Origin: Gemmatimonadota bacterium | GTDB taxonomy: Bacteria; Gemmatimonadota; Gemmatimonadetes; Gemmatimonadales; GWC2-71-9 | Direction of reading: 5' to 3' | NCBI GenBank assembly: GCA_016209985.1 | Contig: JACQVB010000115.1 | Span: 7,210 to 71,209, forward strand | DNA length: 64,000 nt | Part shown: positions 2,576-58,712 of the stretch, piece by piece | Numbering within the stretch: position 1 is the first letter of the stretch | Layout of the letters: the number at the start of each line of letters is the position of its first letter | Position numbers and translations under genes: made by a program | Notes under the pieces: generated by a model | What the model was told of the DNA's origin: nothing | What the model saw: only the letters and a program-made list of their open reading frames with translations | The model's database searches: none

Positions 2576-2577
2576 CC

Positions 2578-8496: not shown

Positions 8497-8569
8497 TGCG
8501 ACGAAGACAACGGTACAGCCAAGCGACCAGATGGTCCCGAAATCGGCTGATCTGGAAGGGAGTCACCTT

Positions 8570-11599: not shown

Positions 11600-11625
11600 C
11601 CACCGCGCGTGTGCGAGGGGGAAAC

Positions 11626-29723: not shown

Positions 29724-29753
29724 TTGACAGAAGATTGACCGCACCGAATATAT
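29724..29753 (+). promoter_or_regulatory. Candidate sigma70-like promoter for SusC copy 3 (TTGACA-N17/18-AATATAT)
   Basis: TTGACA at 29724-29729 is followed 17-18 nt later by an AT-only stretch aatatat, in the 109-bp divergent spacer between P5 and SusC copy 3. Confidence 0.3.
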
Positions 29754-29814
29754 GGGCAAGGTAAACCCTGCCGGGCAGTACCAGATCTACTCGTTTGCCG
29801 ACCAGGAGATGGAT

Positions 29815-32800: not shown

Positions 32801-32826
32801 GGTTCTCCCTCGACTTTGGATTCTGA
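29815..32826 (+). CDS. SusC/RagA-type TonB-dependent transporter, copy 3
   Basis: ORF 29752..32826, with ATG 29815 (AGGAG 6-7 nt upstream). The signal is MRQKLVWLFAVLWLVPMLSASA/QTRIVTGRVADSLTGE. It has CarboxypepD_reg-like and plug domains and a large barrel ending WFSLDFGF. Confidence 0.9.
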   Translation: MRQKLVWLFAVLWLVPMLSASAQTRIVTGRVADSLTGEPVTSGQVAVQGTTVATTIKDDGTFTLPVPVRDVTLSIRSIGFKRKDVAVPVSLATVAVSMERDYFQLEAIVVTGQATGVEKRNLANAVSTVSAAQLAAVPAQSIEHALTGKMAGADIQQNTNAPGGGTRVKLRGMTTLTGAYTPLYVVDGVIVSDASISGGVNIVTKASTAGGVIAVSAENNTNRIADLNPNDIESVEVMKGAAASAVYGSKASNGVILITTKRGRVGAPQFSLTQRFGVSQISRKMGLRDFSTDSAGAVEAKGPLASSVWKANTFFDHEEELYGREPLSYETDANVSGGTENTRYFASGLVKHDGGIVNHTYYDKQSLRLNLDQTVGSRVSFGAGAQVIHSVAARGLFHNDNSGTSYGMVLPHTPSYVDLRAVCPDGSRQVECEGGVYPANPFVASNPLQTAALLDYTEGVWRSILSGNGSVDLVKTPQHNLRFLTNGGVDFFNQKDYLYSPPELLYEDDDGLLGTVSTTNAQNVNLNLNTNLVHVLKPSSGSFSATTSAGLQMEWRDLDIIRNVAQNLLGGLAEVNSGSVALLDEDRSYVKDQGLFVQEEVLTLRERLLVTGGLRADRSSNNADAEKWLFYPKASASYRLAVGGGALTELKLRAAFGQSGNQPLYGQKFTELAGGNIAGINAFRVGGTRGAVDLRPERQREIEAGFDATLFSGRTTLEVTGFEKKITDLLLRRSLPPYSGFTIEIFNGGAMRTRGIETALNIAAVQKPNLQWSARFTFAKTRAIITSLPVPEYRTGGTLTGFHIIKEGYSPTDVFGFDSTATTADPVFAATGLVKIGDKEPTFTMGLSNDLNVKRFHLYFLWDWKKGGSAGNGAQRHFDLSLNAVGSCNVRVPSGSTTKCIGTARIDPLYTRKMSSTLVMDNSWVKLRELTLSFDLPQSLTRSLWSGARYIRASLSGRNLLMFTPWLGYDPEGVETGFNASPTRELGPYPPQRSLWFSLDFGF

Positions 32827-32828
32827 CC

Positions 32829-38767: not shown

Positions 38768-38769
38768 GG

Positions 38770-41700: not shown

Positions 41701-41799
41701 TGAATCGGTGACACGGCCGGTGACGATGCGGGTCTGCGCCGAGAGCGGCGCGCCGGTCAGCCAGGCCGCGACCAACAAGAAGCCAACAACAGTGCGCAT
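38770..41799 (-). CDS. SusC/RagA-type TonB-dependent transporter, copy 4
   Basis: 1009-aa ORF with the signal MRTVVGFLLVAAWLTGAPLSA/QTRIVTGRVTDSLTGE. It has the plug ...SVEVLKGASAAAIYGSKAANGVILITTKRGR and ends FWFSLDLGF. Confidence 0.9.
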   Translation of the reverse strand: MRTVVGFLLVAAWLTGAPLSAQTRIVTGRVTDSLTGETVTSGQVSVANTTIGTTLKDDGTFTIAVPPRDVVLTIRSIGFKRRDVPVSASQNAVDVNLERDYFQLEAIVVTGQATGVEKRNLANAVATVNAAEVAKVSAPTLEQALSGKMAGVQLQENSGAPGGGMRVRLRGATSIIGGGNPLYVVDGVIASDARIEGGMNAVSLAQGANNITSVEQMNPVNRIADLNPNDIESVEVLKGASAAAIYGSKAANGVILITTKRGRLGAPRFQIRQGVGVAMRSFTFGSRYFSDSTSAIQAFGATARQHWTPGYTAVNLEDDISGYKPLQYETSVNMSGGTETTQYFASALVRHEGGIVLETFADKASVRLNLDQQVGRRLKLSTGTEVIRTANDRGMFGNDNAGTSYYFVLMHHPNFFDLRATCPDGTRQAKCEGGVYPVNPYVTSNPLHSAVAMTRDEEVWRMLTTGRAQLDAISSTQNTLRLILAGGFDQFIQEDNIVSPPELQYEPNDGLPGTVVRSFGNSFQGNVNANIVHSYRSAGGFLSATTQFGTQYEYQRLMLDRTATKGLVAGTPTVAAGSRIQVEQDFTRVKDFGFFGQEELLLSEKLLLTVGVRADRSSNNADTKKFFYYPKASASYRFTSFPGPIDELKLRTAFGQTGNRPLYGQKFTNLNATNVGGVGGVSVAAAAGAADAKPERQTEIEAGFDAQMLGGRALLEVSVYQKSSKDLLLQRTLAPVTGFSSEIFNGAEMRVRGLEWGLTLTPVRTSTVTWTSSLNWAMNRSKITKLPVPAFNAAGGSSGAIRIVEGGSATALWSNDTLPRSSPTAPFTLVFKYQADAAPSWTGGLLNTVQYRAISLSTSIEAVRGGRMNAGTWRHWDIARNGYDFEQPGDCGGTTTIGECRLRLQNQVPMNYWRNAGYVKLRELTLGLDLPRSFTNRLWSGIRSARVSLAGRNLIHLQGIIGGDMFKGTDPAAANYHSGNQRSNNVAYTREFAAYPSTRSFWFSLDLGF

Positions 41800-45041: not shown

Positions 45042-48000
45042 ATGACGCGAAAAGCTGGTTTGTTAGGGGCTGCGTTGCTCCTTCTCACGGCGACCCAGGC
45101 TGCGGCTCAAACGCGTATCCTGACGGGGCGGGTGGTCGACTCTTTGTCGGGTGAGTTGGTAACGTCCGGGCAGGTGCTGATCCCGGGAACCACCATGAGC
45201 ACGACCATCAAGGATGACGGGACGTTCACGCTGGCGGCCCCGGCACGAGACGTCACGATCTCGATTCGAAGCATCGGCTACAAGCGCCGGGACGTCTCGG
45301 TACCGGCAGCGGCGAATACGGTGCAGGCGGCATTGGAACGGGACTACTTCCAGTTGGAAGCCATCGTGGTGACGGGGCAGGCCACCGGGGTCGAGCGCCG
45401 GAACCTGGCGAACGCCGTGTCCACGGTGACCGCCACAGACTTGAACAAAGCCCCCACCGGCAGCCTCGAGCAGTCGCTCCAGGGGAAGTTGACCGGCGCC
45501 CAGATCATGCAGACTTCGGGGGCCCCGGGTGGCGGGATGCGGGTGCGCTTGCGGGGGGTTACGTCGATCCTGGGCGAGGCACAGCCGCTTTACGTGGTGG
45601 ACGGCGTCATTATCAGCGACGTGGCGATTTCGCCCGGAACGAACATCGTGTCGCGCGCTTCCGGTGGAGCCGCGAACGCCGGGCGGGATGCCGGGCAGCA
45701 GGAGAGCCCGATCAACCGGGTTGCAGATCTCAATCCGAACGAGATCGAGAGCGTGGAGGTATTGAAGGGCGCCGCCGCGTCGGCGATCTATGGATCCAAG
45801 GCGTCGAATGGCGTCATCATCATTACCACCAAGCGGGGCCGGGTCGGCGCGCCGCAGTTCAGCATCACCCAACGGTTGGGGGTACCGGACCAGTCCTATC
45901 ACGGGGTCGGCTACCGCATGCTGCCGGACTCGGCCAGCGCTCGGAACGACTGGGGCGCTCTGGCCGATCAGTACTGGCGGCCCAACTACACCCCCTACAA
46001 CCACGAAGACTATATCTACAACAATCATCCGATTTCGTACGAGACCGCGCTCAGCGTCAACGGCGGCACCGAGACCACGCGCTATTTCGCCTCCGGGCTG
46101 GTGAAGCATGAGGGAGGCATCCTCACCAACACGTTTGCCGACAAGCAGTCGCTCCGGCTCAACCTCGACCAGACCGTCGGCTCCCGGCTCTCGTTCTCCG
46201 CGAACACCCAGGTGATTCGCAATGAGTCGGACCGCGGTCTCACCGGGAACGACAACGCGGGCACCAGCTACGGCATGACGGTCAACAAGACCCCGAACTT
46301 CATCGATCTCCGCCAGCGACCCGACGGGAGCTGGCCGGTAAATCCGTTTGCGTCGAGCAACTTCCTCCACACGGCCGCCCTCTTCAAGGCCAACGAGAGG
46401 GTGTGGCGGGTGCTGACCAGCGGGCGGATGCAGCTTGATGCGATCACTACCCCCCAGCATACCCTGCGGCTCCTGGCCAACGGCGGGGCGGACAACTTCA
46501 CCCAGAAGGACGTGGTGATCTCGCCCCCGGAGCTGCAGTACGAGGACGACGACGGGTTGCTGGGTACCTATTCCATCGCGTTCAGCCAGAACCTCAATCT
46601 CAACCTGAACGCCAACGCGGTGCACACCTTCAAACCGACGTCCGGCGCGTTCAGCGCGAGCACCTCCTTCGGCGTGCAGTACGAAACCCGTGATCTGAGC
46701 ACGTCCCGTAGTGTGGCGAGGAACCTCCTGGGTGGGGTGATGGCCGTGACCGCCGGAACTCAGGTCCTGGTCGCCGAGGACCACACCCGGGTGGAGGATT
46801 TCGGCATCTTCGCCCAGGAAGAATTCTTGACCTTGGGCGAGAAGCTGCTCCTCACGGTCGGTGGACGGGCGGACCAGAGCAGTAACAACGGTGACCCGAC
46901 CAAGCTTTTCTTCTATCCCAAGGCGTCGGCCTCCTACCGGTTCACCCGCATGCCGGGGCCGATTGACGAGTTGAAGTTGCGGGGTGCCTTCGGACAGTCC
47001 GGGAACCAGCCGCGATACGGACAGAAGTTCACCGAGCTTGCCTCCGGGTTGACTGGAGGCCTGGGCGGGTTCCAGGTGGGCACGACGGCGGGGGCGGCTG
47101 ACCTGCACCCGGAGCGACAACGTGAAATCGAGGGAGGATTCGACGCGACCCTCTTCGGCAGCCGGGCCAATCTTGAGGTCACCGCCTACGAGAAGAAAAT
47201 CACGGATCTCATCGCGACGAGATCTCTGGTCCCGACCACGGGGTTCACCTCCGAGACGTTCAACGGGGGCACGCTCCGTACGCGCGGCCTCGAGCTGTCG
47301 TTGAACCTGGTGCCGGTCCAGAAGACGACCAGCACCTGGAATACCCGGTTCAACTTCGCGATGACCCGAAGCAAGATCCTCGAGCTCGCGGTCCCGCCGT
47401 ACCAGCTCAGCTCGTTCCAGACCGGTGCATTCATTATCCAGACCGCCGATTGCGCGCTTCGCAAGCCTTGTACCGGGTCACCGACCCAGTTGTGGGGCAA
47501 CGACACGCTGCCCGGCGCGGCGCGAGGAACCATCGTGGTCCAACCGCGTCCCATCGGTGAGATGACACCGAAATTCACGCTGGGCATCGCGAACGACATT
47601 GGCTACAAGGCGACCAGGCTCTATGTGCTCTGGGACTGGCAGAATGGGGGCATGCTGGCGGCCGGCACCTGGCGCCACAACGACATCTCCCGCAACGCAC
47701 CGGACCATGACGTGATCAGCCCGATCAGCGGCAAGAAACTCGGGTTGGAGCGGATCGAGTGGTACCGCAACGTCACCACGGTGTACTTCCGACCAGCCTC
47801 GTTCCTGAAACTCCGGGAAGTTCAGCTCACCTACGACATTCCGATGTCGGTGGTGCGGAAGGTCTGGAACTCGGCCCGATACGTGCGGCTGGGCCTGTCC
47901 GGCCGGAACCTGCTCCAGTTCACTCCGTACCGGGGCGGCGATCCGGAAGCCGCGACCTTCCCGTTCAACTCGACGCTGCCCGGAGCCCGCGAGCTCGGAG

Positions 48001-48050
48001 CCTACCCGCCGAGCCGCAGCTTCTGGGTCAACATCGACCTGGGGTTCTGA
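45042..48050 (+). CDS. SusC/RagA-type TonB-dependent transporter, copy 5
   Basis: 1002-aa ORF with GGAGGA upstream. The signal is MTRKAGLLGAALLLLTATQAAA/QTRILTGRVVDSLSGE. It has plug and barrel and ends FWVNIDLGF. Confidence 0.9.
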   Translation: MTRKAGLLGAALLLLTATQAAAQTRILTGRVVDSLSGELVTSGQVLIPGTTMSTTIKDDGTFTLAAPARDVTISIRSIGYKRRDVSVPAAANTVQAALERDYFQLEAIVVTGQATGVERRNLANAVSTVTATDLNKAPTGSLEQSLQGKLTGAQIMQTSGAPGGGMRVRLRGVTSILGEAQPLYVVDGVIISDVAISPGTNIVSRASGGAANAGRDAGQQESPINRVADLNPNEIESVEVLKGAAASAIYGSKASNGVIIITTKRGRVGAPQFSITQRLGVPDQSYHGVGYRMLPDSASARNDWGALADQYWRPNYTPYNHEDYIYNNHPISYETALSVNGGTETTRYFASGLVKHEGGILTNTFADKQSLRLNLDQTVGSRLSFSANTQVIRNESDRGLTGNDNAGTSYGMTVNKTPNFIDLRQRPDGSWPVNPFASSNFLHTAALFKANERVWRVLTSGRMQLDAITTPQHTLRLLANGGADNFTQKDVVISPPELQYEDDDGLLGTYSIAFSQNLNLNLNANAVHTFKPTSGAFSASTSFGVQYETRDLSTSRSVARNLLGGVMAVTAGTQVLVAEDHTRVEDFGIFAQEEFLTLGEKLLLTVGGRADQSSNNGDPTKLFFYPKASASYRFTRMPGPIDELKLRGAFGQSGNQPRYGQKFTELASGLTGGLGGFQVGTTAGAADLHPERQREIEGGFDATLFGSRANLEVTAYEKKITDLIATRSLVPTTGFTSETFNGGTLRTRGLELSLNLVPVQKTTSTWNTRFNFAMTRSKILELAVPPYQLSSFQTGAFIIQTADCALRKPCTGSPTQLWGNDTLPGAARGTIVVQPRPIGEMTPKFTLGIANDIGYKATRLYVLWDWQNGGMLAAGTWRHNDISRNAPDHDVISPISGKKLGLERIEWYRNVTTVYFRPASFLKLREVQLTYDIPMSVVRKVWNSARYVRLGLSGRNLLQFTPYRGGDPEAATFPFNSTLPGARELGAYPPSRSFWVNIDLGF

Positions 48051-48052
48051 CC

Positions 48053-49498
48053 ATGCGGACCATACGACCAGCCCGCTGTGCGGGCATGACCCTGAGGCCA
48101 TTGGCGGTGGCGGTTGCGCTGGTACTGGGCTCGTGCAAGAGTCTCGACGTGCCCAACTACACGGGTGCGAGCATCGACCTGCTGGAGCAGAATCCTACGC
48201 CGAGCGTGATCAACTCCATGGCGATCGGAATGCTGATTGGGATCCGAGGCCTGGCCACCGGCCTGGAGACGCTCGACCTCTATGGACGTAACGCCTTCAA
48301 CCTGGACCCCACTGAGGTGCGGAGCATGACGACCCCGATGCTCGGGCCCCTGACGAGCGGGGGGTGGTGGGGCTATCGGAACATTCGGAACGGCAACTCT
48401 ATCCTGAAAGCGCTGGGCGTAGTTGGGGCCGCCATGACGGACCAGCAGAAAGAGGGGGTCCGCGGCTTCGTCAAGACCATCATGGCCTGGGAGTTCCACG
48501 CGCTGCTGCGCGTCCGGTTCCAGGACGGCGCGGCGATCGACGTAGATCGGCCGCGCTCGGAACTAGCCCCCATCGTGGGTGGGTCGCAGGTCTTGAGCCA
48601 TATCGTCAAGCTGCTGGATGAGGCTAAGACCCATCTCCAGGCGGCTGGGACCGCGTTCTCGTTCGCACCGCTGCCCTCCGGGTTCACCGGCTTCAACACG
48701 CCGGCCACGTTCCTGCGATTCAACCGGGCGCTGAAGGCCCGCGTGGAGGTATATGGTGCCACGTGGGAGACCGCCAACGCAGCCGCGCACTGGAACGCGG
48801 CGCTGCAGGCGATCACCGAGTCCTTCATAAGCACGTCGGGGTGCACGGGTAGCATTTCCGCCGCTTGCCTGACCACGCTCGGTGTCGGTCCCCAGCACAC
48901 GTACAGCACAGCCTCAGGAGACGCGCTGAACACCCTGTATGATCCCACCGGCCGGCAGCGGTTGGTTTCCCCCTCCTTCCTGGCGGATGCCGAGCGGCGG
49001 CCCAATGGCGCATATGATGACCGGCAGGTGCGCAAAGTAATTCAGTCGACCCCGCGGGCGCTGGTCGGGTATACGTCCGACTACCGGTGGGCCCTGGTAC
49101 CGACCAACACTACCGGCATCCCGATCATCCGGAATGAGGAGCTGATTCTGCTCCGGGCCGAGGCCAATCTCGGGCTGGGGAACACCTCGGCGGCAATACA
49201 GGACATCAACTTCATCCGGGCGAACTCGGGCGGGCTGGCGTCGATCTCGGATCCGTTCGTGCCGGCCGCTGGCCAGCAGCCGACGCTGCTCGACCAGTTG
49301 CTCTATGAGAAGCGGTATTCGCTGGTCTACGAGTTCGGCCACCGGTGGGTGGACGCCCTGCGATACAACAAGCTCGCCAGCCTGCCGAAGATCCAGCCAC
49401 TGGAACGGCTCTGGCTCCGGCTGCCGTTCCCCGAGGATGAGTGCGCACAGCGGACCGACCAGAACCTCTCTGGCTGCAAGCAGGAGGCAGGTATCTAG
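48053..49498 (+). CDS. SusD/RagB-family lipoprotein, copy 5
   Basis: ORF 47759..49498, with ATG 48053 (junction TGACCATG). The signal is ...AVALVLGSC. The C-terminus is LLYEKRYSLVYEFGHRWVDALRYNKL. Confidence 0.85.
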   Translation: MRTIRPARCAGMTLRPLAVAVALVLGSCKSLDVPNYTGASIDLLEQNPTPSVINSMAIGMLIGIRGLATGLETLDLYGRNAFNLDPTEVRSMTTPMLGPLTSGGWWGYRNIRNGNSILKALGVVGAAMTDQQKEGVRGFVKTIMAWEFHALLRVRFQDGAAIDVDRPRSELAPIVGGSQVLSHIVKLLDEAKTHLQAAGTAFSFAPLPSGFTGFNTPATFLRFNRALKARVEVYGATWETANAAAHWNAALQAITESFISTSGCTGSISAACLTTLGVGPQHTYSTASGDALNTLYDPTGRQRLVSPSFLADAERRPNGAYDDRQVRKVIQSTPRALVGYTSDYRWALVPTNTTGIPIIRNEELILLRAEANLGLGNTSAAIQDINFIRANSGGLASISDPFVPAAGQQPTLLDQLLYEKRYSLVYEFGHRWVDALRYNKLASLPKIQPLERLWLRLPFPEDECAQRTDQNLSGCKQEAGI

Positions 49499-49507
49499 GG
49501 CGTCTGC

Positions 49508-49582
49508 GGGGCAGAGGCAGGAGAGGCGGAGAGGCGAGCGGCAGTGTTACGGGATCTCTGCCGCTCTGCCTCTCTGCCTTTT
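49508..49582 (+). terminator. Long GC-rich hairpin built from GGCAGAG-type short repeats, followed by TTTT
   Basis: The left arm GGGGCAGAGGCAGGAGAGGCGGAGAGGCGAGCGGCAG pairs with the right arm CTCTGCCGCTCTGCCTCTCTGCC, including a 9-bp perfect core GAGCGGCAG/CTGCCGCTC. TTTT follows. It lies 10 nt after the SusD copy 5 stop. Confidence 0.55.
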
Positions 49583-49692
49583 GGCATCCAGCCTGTGTCA
49601 TTTTGCGACCGAACGCGTATTGACAGTGGGAAAAACGCCGCCTTATTGCCTTATTAGAGGATAGCAGAGAGACCCCGCAGGAGGAGTTGCAC

Positions 49693-49965
49693 ATGGGTCG
49701 CGCGTCGCTGGCATTGCTCGCGCTGTTACTCCCCGTTCGTGTCTCGGATGTGGCGACCCAAAGCCGCATGATCGTGGGGCGGGTCACTGACGAATTCGGC
49801 CAACGTTGGGTGGATCTCGCGCGGTACGGGAAGCTGCTCGAGCTTCCGCGAGACCAGCCCACGCACCGGATCTGGCCCGCGCTGCCGTTCGCTCAAACCG
49901 AGTGCAACTTCCGCCAGGCGGAGAATCTTACCGGTTGCCCTGCGGGAGGCGAATCCGGCATCTAG
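49693..49965 (+). pseudogene. In-frame SusC-N-terminus / SusD-C-terminus fusion remnant (90 aa)
   Basis: ORF 49687..49965, with ATG 49693 (GGAGGAG 6 nt upstream). MGRASLALLALLLPVRVSDVATQSRMIVGRVTD matches a SusC signal plus the first strand. EFGQRWVDLARYGKLLELPRDQPTHRIWPALPFAQTECNFRQAENLTGCPAGGESGI* is colinear with the last ~55 residues of SusD copy 5. Confidence 0.65.
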
Positions 49966-50030
49966 GGGAGGGTACGAGTCGGTAGGGACGGTAAGGGGCG
50001 GTAAGGGTGATTAATCCTTGCCGCCCTTCG
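49966..50030. repeat. CGGTAAGGG-type tandem repeats with inverted partner
   Basis: cggtaggga cggtaagggg cggtaagggtga, then ttaa, then TCCTTGCCGCCCTTC (complementary to AAGGGGCGGTAAGG with mismatches). Confidence 0.6.
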
Positions 50031-50115
50031 CTTGTCTGGTGGCCCGTGCGGTCGTGCTCTTCGGAGATGTCCTCCTTTCGTATTGACAGCCGGAAACGAG
50101 TCCGCATTCTCAGGT

Positions 50116-50901
50116 ATGCGGTTTTGGTATGTCGCGTATCTGTGTTTCGGCGCAACCACCTCCGTGGCCGCGCAGATCGCCGCTCCCACCGATCGAGTTG
50201 TCTCAGGGCGGGTTGTCGACTCGGTGTCCGGCCGTGCGCTCCCCCGCGCCGTTCTCTATTTCGAGCGTGTTAACCAGGAGTACCAATCCGGTCCCGATGG
50301 ACGGTTTCGGATCGAGGGCGTCCGGCCGCTCGATACGCTCTTGGTGGTCAGGCGAATCGGGTATGTGCCGGTCCGGGTGCCGGTTCCATTCTCGGTCTCG
50401 GCCGCTGAGATGGATGTGGGAACGGTCTGGTTGCGACCGGTCGCGACCAAGCTCGACGTCATCGCGGTGGAAGCGGAAGAGGTGCGACGGTATCCCCAGC
50501 TGGACGATTTCTATCGGCGCAAACACCTGGGCCGTGCCGGGTTTTTCCTGACTCCAGAGGAAATCGCCCGGGCGAACGCACGCAGAACCAGCAATCTGCT
50601 CGAGCGCAGCTCCAAGGTTAAAACCGAGTGCAACGATACCGGACGTTGGCAAAAAGGAGCGCCGTTCGATTGCACGGCGCAGAACAGCCGCCCACAGGGA
50701 GCGGGAGGCATGAGGGTCGAGCAATGCGCGCTCGAGGTCTGGGTCGATGGTGTCCGCACCGCCGTGAACGTGGACGACGTGCCGGTTCGGGAAATTCTGG
50801 CGATCGAGGTCTACAATGGGCCGGCGACCACGCCGACCGTGTTTGGCTCGGGGCATTGCGGCGTGGTTGCGATCTGGACCACGAGCGGGCGCGGCAGGTA
50901 G
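50116..50901 (+). CDS. Stand-alone CarboxypepD_reg-like + divergent plug-like domain protein
   Basis: ORF 50032..50901, with ATG 50116. The signal is MRFWYVAYLCFGATTSVAAQ. It has a CarboxypepD_reg-like segment (SGRVVDSVSGRALPRAVLYFERVNQEYQSGPDGRFRIEGV) and a plug-like end (VWVDGVR...VREILAIEVYNGPATTPTVFGSGHCGVVAIWTTSGRGR*). Confidence 0.65.
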   Translation: MRFWYVAYLCFGATTSVAAQIAAPTDRVVSGRVVDSVSGRALPRAVLYFERVNQEYQSGPDGRFRIEGVRPLDTLLVVRRIGYVPVRVPVPFSVSAAEMDVGTVWLRPVATKLDVIAVEAEEVRRYPQLDDFYRRKHLGRAGFFLTPEEIARANARRTSNLLERSSKVKTECNDTGRWQKGAPFDCTAQNSRPQGAGGMRVEQCALEVWVDGVRTAVNVDDVPVREILAIEVYNGPATTPTVFGSGHCGVVAIWTTSGRGR

Positions 50902-50986
50902 TCCTCTGCGGCAGGTAGTCCTCTGCGGCAGGTAGTCCTCTGAGGAAGGTTCCCCTCTCCCATCGGGGAGAGGGGACAGGGGAGAG
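50893..50986. repeat. 17-bp tandem repeat x3 overlapping the stop codon, followed by a 10-bp-stem hairpin and an extra half-copy
   Basis: GGCAGGTAGTCCTCTGC occurs at 50893-50909 and 50910-50926, with one mismatch at 50927-50943. The gene's TAG (50899-50901) lies in unit 1. Next comes CCCCTCTCCC atcg GGGAGAGGGG (50952-50975) and a repeat GGGGAGAGG (50978-50986). Confidence 0.85.
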
Positions 50987-50991
50987 GTGTA

Positions 50992-51020
50992 TTGACAGGG
51001 GAGCTTTATCTGCCTAATTC
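50992..51020 (+). promoter_or_regulatory. Candidate promoter for 51047 gene (TTGACA-N17-TAATTC)
   Basis: GTATTGACAG at 50990-50999, then after a 17-nt spacer TAATTC at 51015-51020. ATG 51047 is preceded by CCAGGAGG. Confidence 0.3.
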
Positions 51021-51046
51021 CCATTGGTAGGGAACCAGGAGGTCGT

Positions 51047-51850
51047 ATGATCCGCCGGTCGCTTTCCGCCATCGCCTTGCTACTCGCCGCTTGGTCCGCG
51101 AGCGCCTACGCGCAGAGCCGGGTGATCTTTGGCCGGGTGATCGATTCGACCACGACCGAGCCGCTGGATCATGGGCTCATCCGCGTCCTCGGCACTCCTA
51201 TTCAGGGCCAGGTACAGAAGGACGGCTCGTTCATCCTCTACGTGCCCATCCGCGAAGTGACGCTCAAGTTCGAAGGGTACAATTACCACAATAAGGAAGT
51301 AGTGGTGCCTTACCGGGAAGAGACCGTCATCCTGCCGGTGAGGCGGGACTACTTCCGGCTCTCCACCATGGTGGTGCTAGGCCAGTCTTCCGGTGTGGAG
51401 CGGCGGAACCTCCCGAACTCGATTGCCCAGGTGAGCAGTGAAGACCTCTCCCGCACGCCGTCTCCCTCGGTGGACGATGCGCTGCGGGGGAAGGTCAACG
51501 GCGCCATCATCAATCGCCGGTCAGGCGCGCCGGGGGGCGGGATCACCATGCGGCTGCGGGGGGTGAGCACGATTCTGGGAAATGCCGACCCGCTCTACAT
51601 CGTGGACGGCGTGATCGTGAGCAACGTGACAATTCCGGGTGGCGTGAACGCGGTGACCCAGGCGCAACGCGGGGCGATCGCCTCCGATCAGGAAGACTCG
51701 ATGAACCGCATCGCCGACCTCAATCCCAACGACATCGAGAGCGTGGAGATCCTGAAGGGTGCTTCGGCCGCCGCGATGTACGGATCGAAGGCGTCCAACG
51801 GGGTGGTGATCATCAAGACGAAGCACGGGCGGTTCATCGGGGAGAACTAG
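51047..51850 (+). CDS. SusC N-terminal half only: CarboxypepD_reg + plug domains, no barrel
   Basis: It is colinear with residues 1-~265 of SusC copies 1/3/4/5 (AQSRVIFGRVIDSTT..., RRDYFRLSTMVVLGQSSGVERRNL, GGGITMRLRGVSTILGNADPLYIVDGVIVS, NRIADLNPNDIESVEILKGASAAAMYGSKASNGVVIIKTKHGR). After that it reads FIGEN* and is followed by a strong terminator. Confidence 0.75.
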   Translation: MIRRSLSAIALLLAAWSASAYAQSRVIFGRVIDSTTTEPLDHGLIRVLGTPIQGQVQKDGSFILYVPIREVTLKFEGYNYHNKEVVVPYREETVILPVRRDYFRLSTMVVLGQSSGVERRNLPNSIAQVSSEDLSRTPSPSVDDALRGKVNGAIINRRSGAPGGGITMRLRGVSTILGNADPLYIVDGVIVSNVTIPGGVNAVTQAQRGAIASDQEDSMNRIADLNPNDIESVEILKGASAAAMYGSKASNGVVIIKTKHGRFIGEN

Positions 51851-51923: not shown

Positions 51924-53663
51924 TTATTCCACCATCTCCCTCAACCAGCTGAACGGTCCTCCCGTCGCGCGCTTGAGGGCCTGCGCGTACTCCTCGGCGG
52001 AGGCGAAACGGTCGGCGGGGCGGGGAGCCGCGCCCTTGGCGATCATCGCGAGGATCCGCTCGGGCACATCGTCCCGTTGCTCTGAGATGTCGGGCAGCTC
52101 TCCCACCGTTTGCCGGGCGACGATCGATTCGACCGAGCCGCCGGAGAACGGGGGATAGCCGGACAACGCGAAGTAGGCCACTGCACTCAGCGAATAGAGG
52201 TCGGTGCGGGCATCTACCGGCTCTCCCAGTAGCTGCTCCGGCGCCGCGAATTCCGGCGTGCCCGCCCGCGACGCGGAGGCTCCGCCGAACCGGTCGGGTC
52301 CCTGGAAGGCGAGCGCCAGCCCGAAGTCCGCGATGCGTACCCCGCCGTCCACGCCGTCGATCAACACGTTTTCGGGTTTCAAGTCACGGTGTACCAGCCC
52401 CTGGGCGTGGGCGTGCTGGAGTGCCGCCAGGGACTCCACCAGCAGCCGAATGACCCGATCGACGGGCAGCGGTCCCGTATTCTGCACGATCTGGGCGAGA
52501 CTCTTTCCCGGCACGTACTCCATGGTATACCACTGCAGTCCCGCCCGTCCGCCGATGTCGAAGATCTGAACGATGTTCTGGTGGTCCAGCCGCGCGGCCA
52601 GCTGCGCCTCACGGCGAAACCGATCGACCACGGCGGGATCGGCCGTGAGGAACGGGTGGAGGATCTTGAGCGCGACTTCGCGCTCCAGCCGCAGGTCCCG
52701 CACCCGGTATACCCGGCCGAAGCCGCCAGCGCCCAGCTCGTTCAGCAGCTCGTACTCGTCGCCGAGTGCCCGCCGGAGGCGCTTCTCCCACGATCGGGAA
52801 TCCTCCGTTCCCGCGCCGAGCGGTGGCGCGACGGCTTGCGGGACCTCGAAGTCCCCGAGATCGGATGCGAGATCGTCGCCCATTTCCGCAGCGGTGTAAT
52901 AGCGCTCCGCCGGGTTGCGGCGCATGGCGCGGAGGATGATCCGCTCGATGACCTGCGGGCAGGCGGGCCGCAGCTCCCGGGGCTTCCGGATGGCGGACGG
53001 ATCGACCGCGGGCGTCTGGCCGGTGGCCGCATAGTAGAGGAGCGCGCCGGCGGTGTAGATGTCGGCGGCCGGCTCGCCCGGTCCGCCGGCGCGCGTTTCG
53101 GGCGCGAGGAAGGGTTCGCTGCTCGGGTCGTCTTCCTGTCCGGCGACGTCGAGACAGGGATTGGCAAAGCGAAGATCGGTAATCACCGCGCGGTTGGCGC
53201 GGTCGAGCATCAGGGTCGTGGGCAAAATGCGGCGCAAGACGACCCGTTCGGCGTGCGCGTACTCCAGCGCCGCGGTCAAATCCCGCGCCAGCTGCACCAC
53301 GGTGGGAATCGGCCGCTCTCCGCGCGCCACCGCGTCGTGCAGGCTCTCCCCGTCGATCCATTTGCTGGCGCGCCACGCGAGATCGCCACGAACCCCGGCG
53401 GCGTAGACCGCCCGGATGGTGGGGTGATCCAGTGCGGCGAGGAGCTCCGTCTCCCGCTCGAACCACCGGCGGGAGGTGGAATCCGGTCGCAGATGGAGCC
53501 GCAATGCGACGCGGCGCTTGAGGACCTGGTCCCGGGCCACGAAGAGCACCCGTTCGTCGCTGGTCGCCACGAGGCGCTCCACATCGAACAGGTCGCGCAA
53601 CGACCCCTCCGCGAGGGTGAACAGCGCGGCAGGATCGGCCGGCGAAGCGGAACCAATGGGCAT
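51924..53663 (-). CDS. Tandem pseudokinase + Ser/Thr protein kinase (Hanks-type), cytoplasmic
   Basis: The C-terminal half has all catalytic motifs (GAGGFGRVY, VALK, HRDLKPEN, DFG, APE). The N-terminal half is kinase-like but degenerate: it has no Gly loop, ALR replaces ALK, VLRRILPTT replaces HRDLKPEN, and DLR replaces DFG. No TM segment is present. Confidence 0.85.
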   Translation of the reverse strand: MPIGSASPADPAALFTLAEGSLRDLFDVERLVATSDERVLFVARDQVLKRRVALRLHLRPDSTSRRWFERETELLAALDHPTIRAVYAAGVRGDLAWRASKWIDGESLHDAVARGERPIPTVVQLARDLTAALEYAHAERVVLRRILPTTLMLDRANRAVITDLRFANPCLDVAGQEDDPSSEPFLAPETRAGGPGEPAADIYTAGALLYYAATGQTPAVDPSAIRKPRELRPACPQVIERIILRAMRRNPAERYYTAAEMGDDLASDLGDFEVPQAVAPPLGAGTEDSRSWEKRLRRALGDEYELLNELGAGGFGRVYRVRDLRLEREVALKILHPFLTADPAVVDRFRREAQLAARLDHQNIVQIFDIGGRAGLQWYTMEYVPGKSLAQIVQNTGPLPVDRVIRLLVESLAALQHAHAQGLVHRDLKPENVLIDGVDGGVRIADFGLALAFQGPDRFGGASASRAGTPEFAAPEQLLGEPVDARTDLYSLSAVAYFALSGYPPFSGGSVESIVARQTVGELPDISEQRDDVPERILAMIAKGAAPRPADRFASAEEYAQALKRATGGPFSWLREMVE

Positions 53664-55991: not shown

Positions 55992-58712
55992 ATCGGTGAG
56001 TGGCACGACCCAACCAGCGGACCGCCGACCCGCCGAACTCTCGTTGTCGTCGTCCCCCACACCCACTGGGATCGGGAGTGGTACGAGCCCGTCGCGCGGT
56101 TCCGGCAACGGTTAGTGGCGGTGCTGGACCAGACGGTTGCCGTCCTCACCCATGATCCCGCCTTCAGTTGTTTCCTGCTCGACGGCCAACTTGCGATGCT
56201 GGATGACTATCTCGCCATCCGGCCGGAGCAGCGAGCAGCGGTGGCCGAACTGGTCGAAGCGAATCGATTGTTGATCGGCCCGTGGTACGTGCTCGCGGAC
56301 GAGCTGCTGTCTTCTGATGAATCCCTGGTGCGGAACCTTCTCGCCGGGCGGCGGGCCGCGGAATCGCTCGGCGGATGGCTTCCCCTGGGATACAGCCCGG
56401 ATGCCTTCGGCCACCCGGCGGCCTTTCCCACCATCCTCGCGGGATTCGGCATCGAACACGGCATCCTCTGGCGGGGATACGGTGGAGAACCAGGCCAGGA
56501 GAAAGATCTTTTCCGCTGGATCGGTCCGGATGGTTCGGCAGTTCTGGTCCATCACCTCTCTGCGCCGGGCTACGAGGTCGGTGCCGCCCTGCCACCCGAT
56601 GGCACCGAGCTCGAGCGGCGGTGGCGTGAGCTGGAGAGTGCGTTTCAGCCCAGGGCCGGCGCACCGGTACGGTTGCTCATGGCCGGCGCGGACCACCATG
56701 CGCTCGATCCCGATCTTCCACAACGGGTCGCGCTGCTCAACACGCTGACTCGGGAATGTGCATTCCGGATCGGCAGCCCGCTGGACTATTTCGCGGCCGC
56801 CGGTGACGCCGAAGACATTCCGGAAGCCGGCGGCGAGCTCCGATTCTCCTACCGCTACACCTGGACGCTGCAGGGCGTGCACTCCGCCCGCACCGCGTTG
56901 AAACGCTCGATTGCCGAGGGGGATCGGCTGCTGCTCCGCTGGGCCGAGCCTCAAGCGGCGCTCGCCACCGCCGGTGGTGCGTCGGACCGTCGTCTACTGC
57001 TTCGAGCAGCATGGCGCGACCACCTGCTCAATCATCCGCATGATACGCTCGGTGGATGTGTCACCGATGACGTGGCGGCGGACGTCGCTGCACGGGCCTC
57101 GGCGGTCCTCGATCAGGCGCGTGGTGTGCTCGTGGATGCGCTGCACGATCGCCTGGGGCAGGACCGATCGCACGCTCGGCGAGCCCGGGACCGGTGGACG
57201 CCGGCGCTGGCAGTGATCAATCCGCGGCCGGTCGTCTACAGTGGCGTGGTCGAGACCACGATCACGGTGTTCGAAAGCGACGTGATCGTCGGTGCTCCTC
57301 GGACGACATCCGCCCGGCCGGGACGGATCGCCCCGCCAGCGGTCTTCACCGCGTCAGGCGATGCCGTGCCTCTGCAGATACTCCATTCGTACGATGCTTT
57401 CGAGCGACTCGACAGCCCGCGCGACTATCCGGATCAGGATCGGGTACGGGCTTTTCGGGTCGCACTTCGCGCTCACGATGTTCCGGCGCTTGGGCTACAG
57501 AGTCTCGCGGTGAAAGAGGCTCCCGGCGGCCGGCCATCAGCCATCAGCCATCAGTCATCAGCCATCGGCCGAGATGCCGATTTGGATTCTGAAGTGAGCG
57601 TCCTGAAGTCCGTCTTGCGAAGCCGGTGGTGCGAGGTGCACGGAGACGATAAGGCCTTCCTGCTCGAGGCGGGTGTGGAGAACCCGTTGCGCGGCCTGGG
57701 CGAATTGGTGAGCGAACGTGACGAAGGAGATCTCTATACGTTCCAGCTGGTGGAGAATGACCGGCCGGTGAGTGGTCGATGGTCCGTGGCTCGGCCGGTT
57801 TGGACCGGTCCGCTGGTGGCGGCGCTGTCACGCGCGGTCAGAGTGGGCGATCGGGTTCAGGGAACCGTCACTGCGCGGCTCGATGCCGGCTCGCACCTGC
57901 TGCGTCTGGTTGCCGAAGGCGTGAACCTGGCGGGCAATCACCGGCTGCGGATCCGGTTTCCTCTACCGGCTCCCGCCTCGTCGCGTCGCTCCATCGCCGA
58001 CATGCAGTACGGCCCGGTCACCCGGGAGCATCGCGCATACGACCCTCGCGAGTACCCGCGTGAGTGGCCGGTGGCGACCGCTCCAATGCATCGGTACGTG
58101 AGCGTCGAAACTGGGGCGGGCAAGGGAATGACCGTCTTTGCGCGGGGTGCCTTCGAGTACGAGCTGGCGGCAGATGCGATCGTGGTGACGCTGTTTCGTG
58201 CCGTGGGAGACTTCTCTCGCGATGACCTTGCCGCGCGTCCGGGCCACGCGGCCTGGCCCGCAATAGCGCCGGCGGCGCAGGAGCTCGGCCCCTTCCGCGC
58301 GGAATTCGGAATCGTGCTACGCGCGGTTCATCAGGGGAGCGCGGCGGAAGAATGGGGCGCGCTCGAGCAACTGGCCGAGGAGTTCCATGCACCCTGTGCC
58401 GGCCTGATGCTGCGATACGGCATCGACGTGCCGGCATCAGTGAACGGACCGGAGCTGCATGGGGCGGGGCTGGCGTTCAAGTCGCTCAAACCGGCAGAAT
58501 CTGGAACCGGAGTCGTGCTCCGCTGCGTGAACCTCACCGGCCAACCGGTGAAGGGAACGTGGCGATGGCCGACGCCAATCCATCAAGCGACCCTGGCTCG
58601 GCTGGACGAGACCCCGATCGGCGATTTGTCGCTGTCGCCGGATCGTCGGGACATTCCGTTTACCGCCCGGCCTCGGGAGATCGTGACGATTATTGTGGAG
58701 CCCGGATCATAG
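55992..58712 (+). CDS. Glycoside hydrolase family 38 (alpha-mannosidase-like); start proposed at ATC 55992
   Basis: The tool ORF starts at GTG 56115, but the frame is open from 55899. Upstream it encodes the GH38 catalytic N-terminal signature LVVVVPHTHWDREWYEPVARFRQRL. The only near-cognate start upstream is ATC 55992. Downstream GH38-like segments are present (GPWYVLADELL, GYSPDAFGHPAAFP). Confidence 0.8.
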   Translation: MGEWHDPTSGPPTRRTLVVVVPHTHWDREWYEPVARFRQRLVAVLDQTVAVLTHDPAFSCFLLDGQLAMLDDYLAIRPEQRAAVAELVEANRLLIGPWYVLADELLSSDESLVRNLLAGRRAAESLGGWLPLGYSPDAFGHPAAFPTILAGFGIEHGILWRGYGGEPGQEKDLFRWIGPDGSAVLVHHLSAPGYEVGAALPPDGTELERRWRELESAFQPRAGAPVRLLMAGADHHALDPDLPQRVALLNTLTRECAFRIGSPLDYFAAAGDAEDIPEAGGELRFSYRYTWTLQGVHSARTALKRSIAEGDRLLLRWAEPQAALATAGGASDRRLLLRAAWRDHLLNHPHDTLGGCVTDDVAADVAARASAVLDQARGVLVDALHDRLGQDRSHARRARDRWTPALAVINPRPVVYSGVVETTITVFESDVIVGAPRTTSARPGRIAPPAVFTASGDAVPLQILHSYDAFERLDSPRDYPDQDRVRAFRVALRAHDVPALGLQSLAVKEAPGGRPSAISHQSSAIGRDADLDSEVSVLKSVLRSRWCEVHGDDKAFLLEAGVENPLRGLGELVSERDEGDLYTFQLVENDRPVSGRWSVARPVWTGPLVAALSRAVRVGDRVQGTVTARLDAGSHLLRLVAEGVNLAGNHRLRIRFPLPAPASSRRSIADMQYGPVTREHRAYDPREYPREWPVATAPMHRYVSVETGAGKGMTVFARGAFEYELAADAIVVTLFRAVGDFSRDDLAARPGHAAWPAIAPAAQELGPFRAEFGIVLRAVHQGSAAEEWGALEQLAEEFHAPCAGLMLRYGIDVPASVNGPELHGAGLAFKSLKPAESGTGVVLRCVNLTGQPVKGTWRWPTPIHQATLARLDETPIGDLSLSPDRRDIPFTARPREIVTIIVEPGS
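57534..57568 (+). repeat. Heptanucleotide tandem repeat (CCATCAG x3 perfect + 2 variants) inside the GH38 CDS
   Basis: ccatcag ccatcag ccatcag tcatcag ccatcgg encodes SAISHQSSAIG. The unit length is not a multiple of 3. Confidence 0.85.

What the first reader, a model, noticed from the sequence alone, without database searches (positions are those of the whole stretch)
49693..49965. In-frame SusC-N / SusD-C fusion ORF: scar of a deleted sixth SusC-SusD pair that may still be expressed
Seen: the 90-aa ORF begins with a SusC-type signal peptide and first strand, LALLALLLPVRVSDVATQSRMIVGRVTD. Compare ...AQTRIVTGRVTDSLTGE in copy 4 and AQSRVIFGRVID at 51047. It continues directly with EFGQRWVDLARYGKLLELPRDQPTHRIWPALPFAQTECNFRQAENLTGCPAGGESGI*. 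This is colinear with the end of SusD copy 5 (EFGHRWVDALRYNKLASLPKIQPLERLWLRLPFPEDECAQRTDQNLSGCKQEAGI*). It keeps a GGAGGAG Shine-Dalgarno 6 nt upstream and a GTATTGACAG box at 49618-49627. Inference: a single deletion of about 4 kb removed the barrel and most of SusD while preserving the reading frame. The product would be a small secreted peptide. The site lies directly after SusD copy 5, implying a former tandem of SusC/SusD pairs.
Basis: partly seen in the sequence, partly recalled or inferred. Interest (0 to 1): 0.55.

Follow-up and report, generated by a model that had tools for sequence, protein, structure and literature searches.

The report
Chimeric SusC-start/SusD-end gene remnant
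A 90-codon reading frame in a Gemmatimonadota genome is a leftover recombination junction that joins the start of a SusC-family gene to the stranded last 57 codons of a SusD gene; it is a one-lineage scar rather than a gene family, and probably not the remains of a deleted sixth gene pair.

Summary
ORF 49693-49965 (90 aa) is a two-part chimera. Residues 1-33 match SusC-family N-termini and residues 34-90 match SusD C-termini, both far above shuffled controls. The promoter-like box, GGAGGAG Shine-Dalgarno and flanking hairpins are present.

Five related lineages carry one SusC/SusD pair at this position (GT4 | SusC | SusD | X50 | plug-only gene | kinase). Their intact SusD ends with the ORF's tail (75-82% identity) directly upstream of the X50 ortholog, so the tail is a stranded orthologous SusD 3' end.

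Three results argue against a simple 4-kb deletion in a vertically inherited sixth pair:
- The 5' half and its 5' UTR resemble the plug-only SusC-family gene that lies downstream of X50, not any full SusC in the window.
- The tail and X50 are as close to the relatives as the relatives are to each other. The flanking SusD of pair 5 and the plug-only gene lie clearly outside that group.
- GC3 drops across the tail and X50.

Best model (about 0.4): a head-to-tail copy of the segment SusD-tail, X50, plug-gene-5' from a related lineage was inserted at the resident plug-gene promoter. The ORF is its junction.

The ORF is found only in this population, with no evidence of function. Expression is plausible but untested. 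This is an ordinary kind of feature.

The parts
49693..49965 (+). Chimeric junction ORF, 90 aa (NCBI locus tag HY700_08580, hypothetical protein)
   Evidence: No Pfam or NCBIfam hit for the whole protein.
49693..49791 (+). 5' half: 33 codons holding a signal-peptide-like stretch and the first residues (QSRMIVGRVTD) of a SusC-family CarboxypepD_reg N-terminus
   Evidence: Best match is the N-terminus of the plug-only gene at 51047 (48% identity, z 11.7). SusC N-termini give z 5.6-6.7 and X50-type N-termini z 1.9-4.5.
49792..49965 (+). 3' half: the last 57 codons plus stop of a SusD gene, orthologous to the SusD tail found upstream of X50 in relatives
   Evidence: 75-82% aa identity to the tails in L016, L003, L014 and L013, the same as those tails share with each other. 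Only 55% to the tail of the adjacent SusD. No excess of private substitutions.
49790..49793 (+). Junction, ...ACT GAC | GAA TTC... Relatives read TAC/TAT GAA TTC, which leaves a 2-nt 'AC' microhomology
   Evidence: Codon alignment.
49680..49686 (+). Shine-Dalgarno GGAGGAG, 6 nt before the ATG
   Evidence: The context CCCGCAGGAGG...GCACATG resembles the 5' UTR of the plug-only gene in L014.
49617..49626 (+). GTATTGACAG box 1 (contains TTGACA; TTATTG follows 17 nt later), promoter-like
   Evidence: Three exact copies in the window.
49521..49582 (+). Long hairpin followed by UUUU after the pair-5 SusD stop (terminator-like)
   Evidence: -57.6 kcal/mol, z -4.7.
48056..49498 (+). Intact SusD of pair 5, with its own complete tail (49331-49498)
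   Evidence: Pfam SusD_RagB. Body and tail are both sister to the relatives' SusD group, not inside it.
45042..48050 (+). Intact SusC of pair 5
   Evidence: TIGR04056 at 470 bits, above cut-off. 68% identity to the C-terminal half of L014's SusC.
49972..50049 (+). Hairpin after the chimeric ORF, the inherited SusD terminator
   Evidence: -47.2 kcal/mol, z -4.5. L003 has a hairpin at the same place.
50080..50089 (+). GTATTGACAG box 2, upstream of X50
   Evidence: L003 has GGTATTGAC at the same place.
50116..50901 (+). X50: 261-aa protein with CarboxypepD_reg and a weak Plug domain. It is the synteny anchor and belongs with the SusD tail in the island of different history.
   Evidence: Pfam. Orthologs at 69-74% identity in L014, L016 and L013. 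Quartet counts 7:8:4. GC3 0.74.
50989..50998 (+). GTATTGACAG box 3, upstream of the plug-only gene; proposed right edge of the island
   Evidence: Its role as the island's edge is an inference.
51047..51850 (+). Plug-only SusC-family gene (267 aa); resident, and outside the relatives' group
   Evidence: Pfam Plug, TIGR04057 signature above cut-off. Conserved as a standalone gene in L004, L013, L014 and L016. Quartet counts 27:1:2.

Best explanation
Robust part (confidence about 0.9). The ORF is a lineage-specific junction ORF, a chimeric gene remnant. Its last 57 codons are the stranded 3' end of the SusD type that, in related Gemmatimonadota, sits intact directly upstream of the X50 gene. Its first 33 codons, with promoter-like box and Shine-Dalgarno, come from the 5' end of a SusC-family gene.

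Committed mechanism (inferred, about 0.4). The 5' donor is the plug-only SusC-family gene, which in relatives lies just downstream of X50. The ORF therefore joins the END of the roughly 1.37-kb segment [SusD tail, intergenic region, X50, intergenic region, plug-gene codons 1-33] to its BEGINNING. That is a head-to-tail junction, the signature of a tandem or circular intermediate rather than of a deletion.

One such unit, from a lineage close to L016/L003/L014, was inserted at the promoter of the resident plug-only gene. The resident locus would have read SusC-SusD(pair 5)-plug-only-kinase. The island (about 49627-50988) is now bracketed by two exact GTATTGACAG copies. The event brought in X50 and created the ORF as a by-product. 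The junction itself was an illegitimate join at a 2-nt microhomology that happened to fall in frame.

Consequence (inferred). The ORF inherits a complete plug-gene-type promoter and ribosome-binding site and is followed by the old SusD terminator. It is probably transcribed and may be translated into an exported 90-aa peptide. Nothing indicates that the peptide has a function.
For: Chimera:
- Both halves exceed shuffled controls.

Scar, not a gene family:
- A search of 5.8 billion protein clusters finds only the ORF itself and a SusD fragment.
- The exact protein occurs only in the MAG and in two Logan contigs of the same population.

Orthologous tail:
- L003, L013, L014/L015 and L016 all have an intact SusD ending EFGHRWVDLARYGKLLTLPRDQPTHRIWP..., directly followed by the X50 ortholog.
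- Tail identity to the ORF is 75-82%, the same as among the relatives (75-84%). The adjacent pair-5 SusD tail is 55% identical to the ORF tail and 58-60% to the relatives' tails.

One pair only in relatives:
- Gene order is GT4(-) | SusC 993 aa | SusD 503 aa | X50 | plug-only 265 aa | kinase(-) | FHA | GH38. The window has the same flanks.

Mosaic history:
- The pair-5 SusD is sister to the relatives' group in both body and tail.
- Quartet site counts for 'relatives together, window outside' against the two alternatives are 27:1:2 for the plug-only gene, 25:7:3 for pair-5 SusD and 7:8:4 for X50.
- Fisher tests give p = 2e-4 for X50 against the plug-only gene and p = 0.02 for X50 against SusD.
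- The plug-only gene and the kinase are closer to MAG HR33 (64% and 80%) than to L014 (56% and 71%), while X50 is 69-74% identical to L014/L016 and 59% to HR33.
- GC3 is 0.83-0.86 in SusC, SusD, the plug-only gene, the kinase and FHA. It is 0.74-0.76 in the ORF's two halves and in X50.

5' half of plug-gene type:
- Best N-terminal match is the neighbouring plug-only gene (z 11.7).
- The upstream 100 nt resemble the upstream regions of the window's plug-only and X50 genes and of L014's plug-only gene (z 4.7, 5.0, 2.9). They resemble none of the four SusC upstream regions tested (pairs 2-5) (z -1.0 to 0.5).
- The Shine-Dalgarno context CCCGCAGGAGG..GCACATG matches L014's CCCGCAGGAAGG..GCACATG.

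Other:
- Junction microhomology 'AC'.
- Exact 10-mer three times, against about 1.3 copies (allowing one mismatch) expected by chance.
Against: - The 33-codon 5' half is too short to assign to a lineage. Its nucleotide identity to relatives' plug-gene 5' ends (0.46-0.51) is below the within-group level (0.65).
- The 5' UTR similarity to L014 is modest (p about 0.007-0.015 before correction for about 10 comparisons).
- No relative's SusC 5' end was available. An origin of the 5' half from the ortholog of the relatives' SusC could therefore not be tested.
- HR33, the closest sampled relative by kinase and plug-gene identity, does have X50-type genes upstream of its plug-only gene. A resident locus lacking X50 is an extra assumption.
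- X50's 'inside the group' status rests on an unresolved quartet (7:8:4) and pairwise identities, not on a resolved tree.
- The GC3 of X50 in the sampled relatives is 0.82-0.84, not 0.74. No sampled lineage is the donor.
- No recombinase or mobile-element gene was seen next to the island. A 10-bp crossover site is very short.
Confidence: 0.4

Rival explanations
1. First reader's model. This lineage once had two tandem pairs here: pair 5 and, after it, the ortholog of the relatives' pair. A single in-frame deletion of about 4.4 kb removed SusC codons 34 to the end and all of SusD except its last 57 codons.
For: - SusC followed by SusD is the natural order that gives an N(SusC)::C(SusD) fusion by one deletion.
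- The 33 N-terminal residues match full SusC N-termini significantly (z 5.6-6.7).
- The tail is orthologous to the relatives' SusD.
- The pair-5 SusD is a separate, complete lineage.
- Whole pairs are gained or lost in this genome: pair 4 is absent from the syntenic contig of a relative.
Against: - Relatives have only one pair, so both a gain and a loss are needed.
- The 5' half and its upstream region look like the plug-only gene's, not like any SusC's.
- It does not explain why the plug-only gene on the other side of X50 is also outside the relatives' group (27:1:2) while X50 is not.
- It does not explain the GC3 step at both edges.
Confidence: 0.22
2. Displacement model. An incoming module [SusC-SusD of pair 5, intergenic region, first 33 codons of the donor's next gene] replaced the resident pair. 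It recombined homologously upstream and joined illegitimately inside the resident SusD. The old SusD 3' end was pushed downstream as an orphan, as in Rhs, CDI and T6SS loci.
For: - The number of intact pairs (one) and their position right after GT4 are the same as in relatives.
- The pair-5 SusD is outside the relatives' group, while the orphan tail and X50 are inside it.
- The junction has 2-nt microhomology.
- This mechanism has been proposed for orphaned 3' regions in other loci (PMC5361080).
Against: - It requires the resident genome to belong to the relatives' group, yet the plug-only gene and the kinase are closer to HR33. A second replacement on the other side of a 1.1-kb island would be needed.
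- The left crossover could not be examined, because no relatives' DNA upstream of SusC was available.
Confidence: 0.15
3. Local tandem duplication of a roughly 461-bp unit [SusD tail, intergenic region, N-terminus of the next gene] within this lineage, followed by divergence.
For: - Tail-to-tail spacing is 461 bp and box-to-box spacing is 463 bp. The extended box matches at 16 of 18 positions (CGTATTGACAGnnGGAAA).
- The unit aligns to the next 256 nt at 62% identity.
Against: - The two tails are only 55% (aa) and 59% (nt) identical, while the downstream tail is 75-82% identical to relatives. No quartet site groups the two tails.
- The upstream, functional copy would have had to diverge very fast while the remnant stood still.
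- The N-terminus is not X50-like (z 2.4).
Confidence: 0.03
4. The ORF is a functional small exported protein gene that is kept by selection, whatever its origin.
For: - It has an intact promoter-like box, a strong Shine-Dalgarno sequence, an ATG, an open frame and a terminator hairpin.
- The tail shows no excess of private substitutions: 2, against 0-3 in functional tails.
- It is identical in three assemblies.
Against: - It is found in one population only.
- No family hit in Pfam or NCBIfam.
- 57 residues cut from a roughly 480-aa helical protein are unlikely to fold alone (inference).
- The predicted signal-peptidase site is poor, with D at -3 in SDVA|TQ where paralogs have AxA (reading of the sequence).
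- The lack of decay is equally explained by a recent event.
- Long open frames are common by chance at 64% GC.
Confidence: 0.06
5. Assembly chimera. The MAG contig joins reads of two related populations, and the ORF does not exist in any cell.
For: Mosaic affinity and a GC3 step are what a chimeric contig could show.
Against: - Two independent assemblies from different runs span pair-5 SusD, the ORF and X50 with 0-1 differences over 2327 and 1785 nt.
- The junction is not in a conserved stretch where assemblers switch strains.
Confidence: 0.03

Closest known systems
Orphaned 3' gene ends left by module displacement in Rhs, CDI and T6SS effector loci (homology-facilitated illegitimate recombination model; PMC5361080)
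   Same: - A stranded 3' end of an older gene copy lies just downstream of an intact gene of the same family.
- The intact gene and the orphan both start their divergent parts after the same conserved motif (here YEKRYSLVY-EFGHRWVD).
- One junction is illegitimate with microhomology.
- The orphan's affinity differs from that of the intact gene.
   Different: - This is a nutrient-uptake SusC/SusD locus, not a toxin/immunity system, so there is no immunity gene to select for retention.
- The orphan is fused in frame to the start of another gene and has its own promoter and ribosome-binding site.
- The evidence here favours insertion of the island that carries the orphan over displacement by the upstream gene.
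Tandem-duplication or circle-integration junctions (head-to-tail novel joints that create chimeric ORFs)
   Same: The ORF joins the 5' end of a gene that normally lies downstream (plug-only gene) to the 3' end of a gene that normally lies upstream (SusD). The segment between them (X50) follows, and short direct repeats bracket the island.
   Different: - Only one unit is present, and the flanks belong to a different lineage. A simple in-place duplication does not fit.
- The intermediate (donor tandem repeat or circle) is inferred, not seen.
SusC/SusD (RagA/RagB) outer-membrane uptake pairs of polysaccharide-utilisation-type loci
   Same: The two halves are homologous to the extreme N-terminus of SusC-family proteins and to the extreme C-terminus of SusD-family proteins. 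The locus holds five intact pairs.
   Different: The ORF has neither plug, barrel nor the SusD TPR-like body. It is not a member of either family in any functional sense.

Membership tests
SusD/RagB family (Pfam PF07980) | Significant match to the SusD_RagB domain model, with the roughly 450-550-aa helical body present | tested here: not met
   No Pfam or NCBIfam hit for the 90-aa product. Only the last 57 residues are homologous to SusD C-termini.
SusD/RagB family (Pfam PF07980) | Encoded immediately downstream of, and paired with, a SusC/RagA gene | tested here: not met
   The ORF follows an intact SusD and a terminator-like hairpin, not a SusC.
SusC/RagA TonB-linked outer membrane proteins (TIGR04056 / TIGR04057) | Plug domain, SusC/RagA signature and 22-strand barrel | tested here: not met
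   The ORF gives no hit. Only the signal-peptide-like stretch and about 12 residues of the CarboxypepD_reg start are present. The neighbouring gene at 51047 has the plug and the signature but no barrel.
   Relatives have one pair between GT4 and X50. Their only SusD carries the ORF-type tail.
   The match to SusC N-termini is significant but weaker than to the plug-only gene. The upstream region resembles none of the four SusC upstream regions tested in the window (pairs 2-5). The relatives' SusC 5' ends could not be obtained.
Orphan 3' remnant from recombinational replacement or insertion (HFIR-type) | The remnant's phylogenetic affinity differs from that of the adjacent intact gene of the same family | tested here: met
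   The ORF's tail falls inside the relatives' group (75-82%), while the adjacent SusD, body and tail, is sister to that group at 56-64%.
Orphan 3' remnant from recombinational replacement or insertion (HFIR-type) | Illegitimate junction at a short microhomology | tested here: met
   GAC|GAA in the ORF against TAC|GAA in relatives: 2-nt 'AC'. This is weak evidence on its own.
Orphan 3' remnant from recombinational replacement or insertion (HFIR-type) | Identified donor lineage and a homologous anchor on the other side | not testable with these tools
   No sampled lineage is closer than 74-82% aa. The right edge lies somewhere in 50902-51060 and could not be resolved.
Conserved small-protein (sORF) gene | Homologs of similar length in other genomes under purifying selection | tested here: not met
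   Only the query's own 90%-identity cluster (one member sequence) and one SusD fragment were found. The representative search with the neighbouring SusD tail returned the ORF only as a singleton.

The most novel reading that the evidence does not exclude
The three units here (chimeric ORF, X50, plug-only gene) are each bracketed by a strong hairpin and an exact GTATTGACAG box. They could be cassettes that move between Gemmatimonadota genomes as circles and integrate at that promoter box. In that reading the ORF is the circle junction of a cassette caught in the act. Such a promoter-targeting, integrase-less cassette exchange for SusC-family accessory genes has not been described. A milder variant is that the exported 90-aa peptide, made of SusD's last helices, acts on the pair-5 SusC/SusD complex.
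Probability: 0.06. Interest if true: 0.6.

Novelty: new member of a known kind. Interest (0 to 1): 0.3.

Why it matters
The ORF is an annotated 'hypothetical protein' that is best read as a recombination junction. That is useful for annotation (flag it as a remnant) and as a dated marker of gene flow into a SusC/SusD locus outside Bacteroidota. Together with a second pair that is present here and absent from a relative's syntenic contig, it shows that these uptake loci in Gemmatimonadota are rebuilt by recombination between related lineages, and that such events can leave promoter-equipped chimeric ORFs. It does not open a new mechanism or answer a long-standing question unless the cassette reading proves true.

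Tried and rejected
- Patch model: only the pair-5 SusD tail is foreign, with about 461 bp inserted into a resident SusD. I first favoured this because the 57 residues before the tail are 82% identical to L016 while the tail drops to 60%. I rejected it as unsupported. That pre-tail stretch is conserved even in distant SusD homologs such as P0122 and P0003. Over its whole length, the SusD body is as far from the relatives as its tail is.
- Local tandem duplication. Rejected on divergence grounds.
- Donor search for the pair-5 SusD tail in 1.84 billion representatives. Nothing is closer than 49-53%, and the ORF itself is among the best hits.
- Same-MAG paralogous locus (P0031, P0062). Only a 1-kb contig was returned, or no record.
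- Genome and metagenome scans with X50. HR33's contig starts at X50, so there is no upstream sequence. The metagenome hits were only 26-47% identical.
- P0022 turned out to be a paralog in an unrelated context.
- A repeat look-up of P0017 to obtain DNA of the 124-kb relative contig failed.
- Exact-protein look-ups for strain variants found none.
- Rfam scan of 49200-51200. Only sub-threshold hairpin look-alikes.
- Lineage assignment of the 33-codon 5' half by nucleotide identity was uninformative.
Full report
**Naming.** The window holds five SusC/SusD pairs:
- Pair 1: 56-3975.
- Pair 2: 8465-12918.
- Pair 3: 29752-34310.
- Pair 4: 37346-41799, minus strand.
- Pair 5: 45042-49498.

Downstream of pair 5 lie the following genes:
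- The 90-aa ORF (49693-49965).
- 'X50' (50116-50901; 261 aa; CarboxypepD_reg plus a weak Plug domain).
- A 'plug-only' SusC-family gene (51047-51850; 267 aa).
- A convergent Ser/Thr kinase (51924-53663, minus strand).
- An FHA-trypsin protein.
- A GH38 mannosidase.

The source is a Gemmatimonadota MAG. The ORF is annotated there as hypothetical protein HY700_08580.

The ORF, its GGAGGAG (49680-49686, 6 nt before the ATG) and the GTATTGACAG box (49617-49626) are present.
- Residues 34-90 align to the end of the pair-5 SusD at 53% identity, and to the ends of the pair-3 and pair-4 SusDs. Smith-Waterman scores of 154, 101 and 95 compare with 27 +/- 4 in shuffles. No shuffle reached them.
- Residues 1-33 align in register with residues 1-33 of SusC-family N-termini. 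None of 2000-3000 shuffles reached the scores against the SusCs of pairs 3-5 or against the plug-only gene.
- Two further assemblies from other sequencing runs reproduce the region at 99.96-100% identity. It is therefore not an assembly artefact.

**2. It is a scar, not a gene family.** A search of 5.8 billion protein clusters returned only the ORF itself and one other protein, P0002. P0002 is the C-terminal 113 residues of an intact SusD on a short contig (L003). Its last 57 residues are 79% identical to the ORF's second half. It is followed by a hairpin, a GGTATTGAC box and the X50 ortholog. The ORF has no Pfam or NCBIfam hit.

**3. What relatives have at this position.** X50 orthologs at 68-73% identity led to four more loci.
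- The gene order is GT4(-) | SusC (993 aa) | SusD (503 aa) | X50 | plug-only (265 aa) | kinase(-) | FHA | GH38. These are the same flanks as in the window.
- There is only one SusC/SusD pair, and no small ORF between SusD and X50.
- In L014/L015, L016, L013 and L003 the SusD ends with the ORF-type tail. L016, for example, reads EFGHRWVDLARYGKLLTLPRDQPTHRIWPALPFSEAECNFRRAANLSGCPVGGEGGI.
- The ORF's tail is 75-82% identical to these tails. They are 75-84% identical to each other. The tail of the window's own pair-5 SusD is 55% identical to the ORF's tail and 58-60% identical to the relatives' tails.

The ORF's second half is therefore the stranded ortholog of the relatives' SusD 3' end, still in its ancestral place next to X50.

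**4. The pair-5 SusD is a complete gene of another lineage.**
- Over body and tail alike it is 56-64% and 49-60% identical to the relatives' SusDs (L016, L014, P0111, P0109). Those are 66-75% and 64-82% identical to each other.
- It is sister to that group in both trees.
- A stretch of about 85 residues before the tail looks closer to the relatives. However, it is conserved even in distant homologs, so it carries no signal.
- A search of 1.84 billion representative proteins found nothing closer than 49-53% to the pair-5 tail.

**5. The neighbourhood is a mosaic.**

Pairwise identities:

| Gene | Window vs L014 / L016 | L014 vs L016 | Window vs HR33 |
|---|---|---|---|
| X50 | 69% / 74% | 72% | 59% |
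| Plug-only | 56% / 54% | 75% | 64% |
| Kinase | 71% / not available | not available | 80% |

Quartet-informative sites are counted as 'L014+L016 together, window outside' against the two alternatives:

| Gene | Counts |
|---|---|
| Plug-only | 27:1:2 |
| Pair-5 SusD | 25:7:3 |
| X50 | 7:8:4 |

- X50 differs from the plug-only gene at p = 2e-4 and from the SusD at p = 0.02.
- No quartet site groups the two SusD tails of the window.
- GC3 is 0.83-0.86 in SusC, SusD (body and tail), the plug-only gene, the kinase and FHA. It is 0.76, 0.76 and 0.74 in the ORF's 5' half, the ORF's tail and X50.

A contiguous island therefore runs from the ORF junction (49791|49792), or from the box at 49617, to somewhere between 50902 and about 51060. 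This island has a different history from both flanks.

**6. Where the first 33 codons come from.**
- The best match is the N-terminus of the adjacent plug-only gene (48% identity, z 11.7).
- Next come plug-only orthologs and full SusCs (z 4.3-6.9). X50-type N-termini match poorly (z 1.9-4.5).
- The 100 nt upstream of the ORF resemble the upstream regions of the window's plug-only gene (z 4.7), of X50 (z 5.0, through the extended box) and of L014's plug-only gene (z 2.9). They resemble none of the four complete SusC genes' upstream regions (pairs 2-5) (z -1.0 to 0.5).
- The Shine-Dalgarno context CCCGCAGGAGGAGTTGCACATG resembles L014's CCCGCAGGAAGGTGCCGCACATG.
- The plug-only gene is not a truncation. 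It is conserved at about 265 aa in L004, L013, L014 and L016, and carries the SusC/RagA signature above cut-off.
- The 33 codons are too short to assign to a lineage.

**7. Mechanism.**

*Shown.* There is a chimeric junction with 2-nt microhomology. The SusD tail is orthologous and stranded. Relatives have a single pair. The affinities are mosaic.

*Inferred.*
- The 5' partner is of the type that lies downstream of X50, and the 3' partner is the gene end that lies upstream of X50. The ORF therefore joins the end of the segment [SusD tail, X50, plug-gene 5' end] to its beginning. That is a head-to-tail junction.
- The simplest single event that also explains both switches of affinity is insertion of one such unit, from a tandem or circular form in a related lineage. 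The insertion site would be the promoter of a resident plug-only gene in a locus that read SusC-SusD(pair 5)-plug-only-kinase.
- Two exact GTATTGACAG copies (49617, 50989) bracket the island.
- I give this model about 0.4.

*Rivals.*
It needs a gain plus a loss, and it leaves the plug-only gene's affinity unexplained.
- Displacement of the resident pair by an incoming pair-5 module is the Rhs/T6SS-orphan-like model (PMC5361080; about 0.15). It needs a second replacement on the far side of a 1.1-kb island.
- A local 461-bp tandem duplication is rejected because the two tails are too different while the remnant is undiverged.

**8. Is it expressed or functional?**
- The ORF has a box with TTGACA, TTATTG 17 nt later, a strong Shine-Dalgarno sequence and an ATG.
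- It sits between two strong hairpins (-57.6 and -47.2 kcal/mol, z about -4.6). Transcription and translation are plausible but untested.
- The tail shows 2 private substitutions (H4Q, T17E) against 0-3 in functional tails. Either the event is recent or the tail is constrained, and recency is the simpler reading.
- The likely signal-peptidase site (SDVA|TQ) has D at -3 where paralogs have AxA (reading of the sequence).
- The ORF occurs in one population only. I put a real function at about 0.06.

**9. Comparison with what is known.**
- The ORF is not a member of the SusC or SusD families in any functional sense.
- As a kind of object it matches orphaned gene ends and novel-joint ORFs left by recombination, which are well known.
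- What is specific here is the setting (SusC/SusD loci in Gemmatimonadota), the in-frame fusion with a full expression signal, and the circularly permuted arrangement.

**Verdict.** It is a new member of a known kind, with interest about 0.3.

Noticed in passing
window 51047-51850: A 267-aa protein consisting only of the SusC-family N-terminal module: CarboxypepD_reg, Plug, and the SusC/RagA signature above cut-off, with no barrel. It is conserved as a standalone gene of about 265 aa, always before the convergent kinase, in L004, L013, L014 and L016. What a barrel-less SusC plug does is unclear.
   Followed up: partly
window 50116-50901; L004 45-833 and 851-1597: The X50 family (CarboxypepD_reg plus a weak Plug domain, about 260 aa, conserved C-terminal GHCGVVAIWT) has 96 homologs in the protein search. 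Every hit that carries a source name is from Gemmatimonadota. MAG HR33 has two tandem copies, and this MAG has further paralogs on another contig (P0031, P0062).
   Followed up: partly
window 49617-49626, 50080-50089, 50989-50998: Three exact copies of GTATTGACAG, each 26-66 nt upstream of the start codon of three consecutive small genes, and each gene followed by a strong hairpin. Relatives have GTGTTGACAG or GGTATTGAC at the corresponding places. This is read here as a shared promoter -35 region. A role as a recombination site is speculative.
   Followed up: partly
window 50891-50958: A 17-nt unit GCGGCAGGTAGTCCTCT repeated three times head to tail, overlapping the X50 stop codon and followed by an 11-bp GC-rich hairpin.
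   Followed up: no
window 37346-41799 (minus strand): SusC/SusD pair 4 lies between a 473-aa gene and the CN_hydrolase gene. The corresponding genes are adjacent in the relative's 124-kb contig (ERZ1305449 gene table). A whole pair has therefore been gained here or lost there.
   Followed up: partly
L003 1-80 and 793-818, and about 735: The ENA contig k141_693117 carries Illumina adapter sequence at both ends and an internal jump within X50. Its called 120-aa protein begins with adapter-derived residues (MCSSDL).
   Followed up: no
L013, L014, L016 (SusD stop to X50 start): In these relatives X50 starts with GTG directly after the SusD terminator-like hairpin, with a 52-60-nt intergenic region and no box. 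In the window and in L003 a TTGACA-type box lies 26 nt before the ATG with no Shine-Dalgarno sequence, which suggests a leaderless or very short-leader mRNA.
   Followed up: no
window 50116-50901 and 56115-58712: GC3 of X50 (0.74) and of the GH38 gene (0.72) is well below that of neighbouring genes (0.83-0.86). X50 orthologs in relatives have GC3 of 0.82-0.84.
   Followed up: partly
L007 8186-8734: A 182-aa SusD C-terminal fragment (P0003) is called as a separate gene on a 13.7-kb metagenome contig among several short genes without domains. This may be another decayed SusD locus.
   Followed up: no
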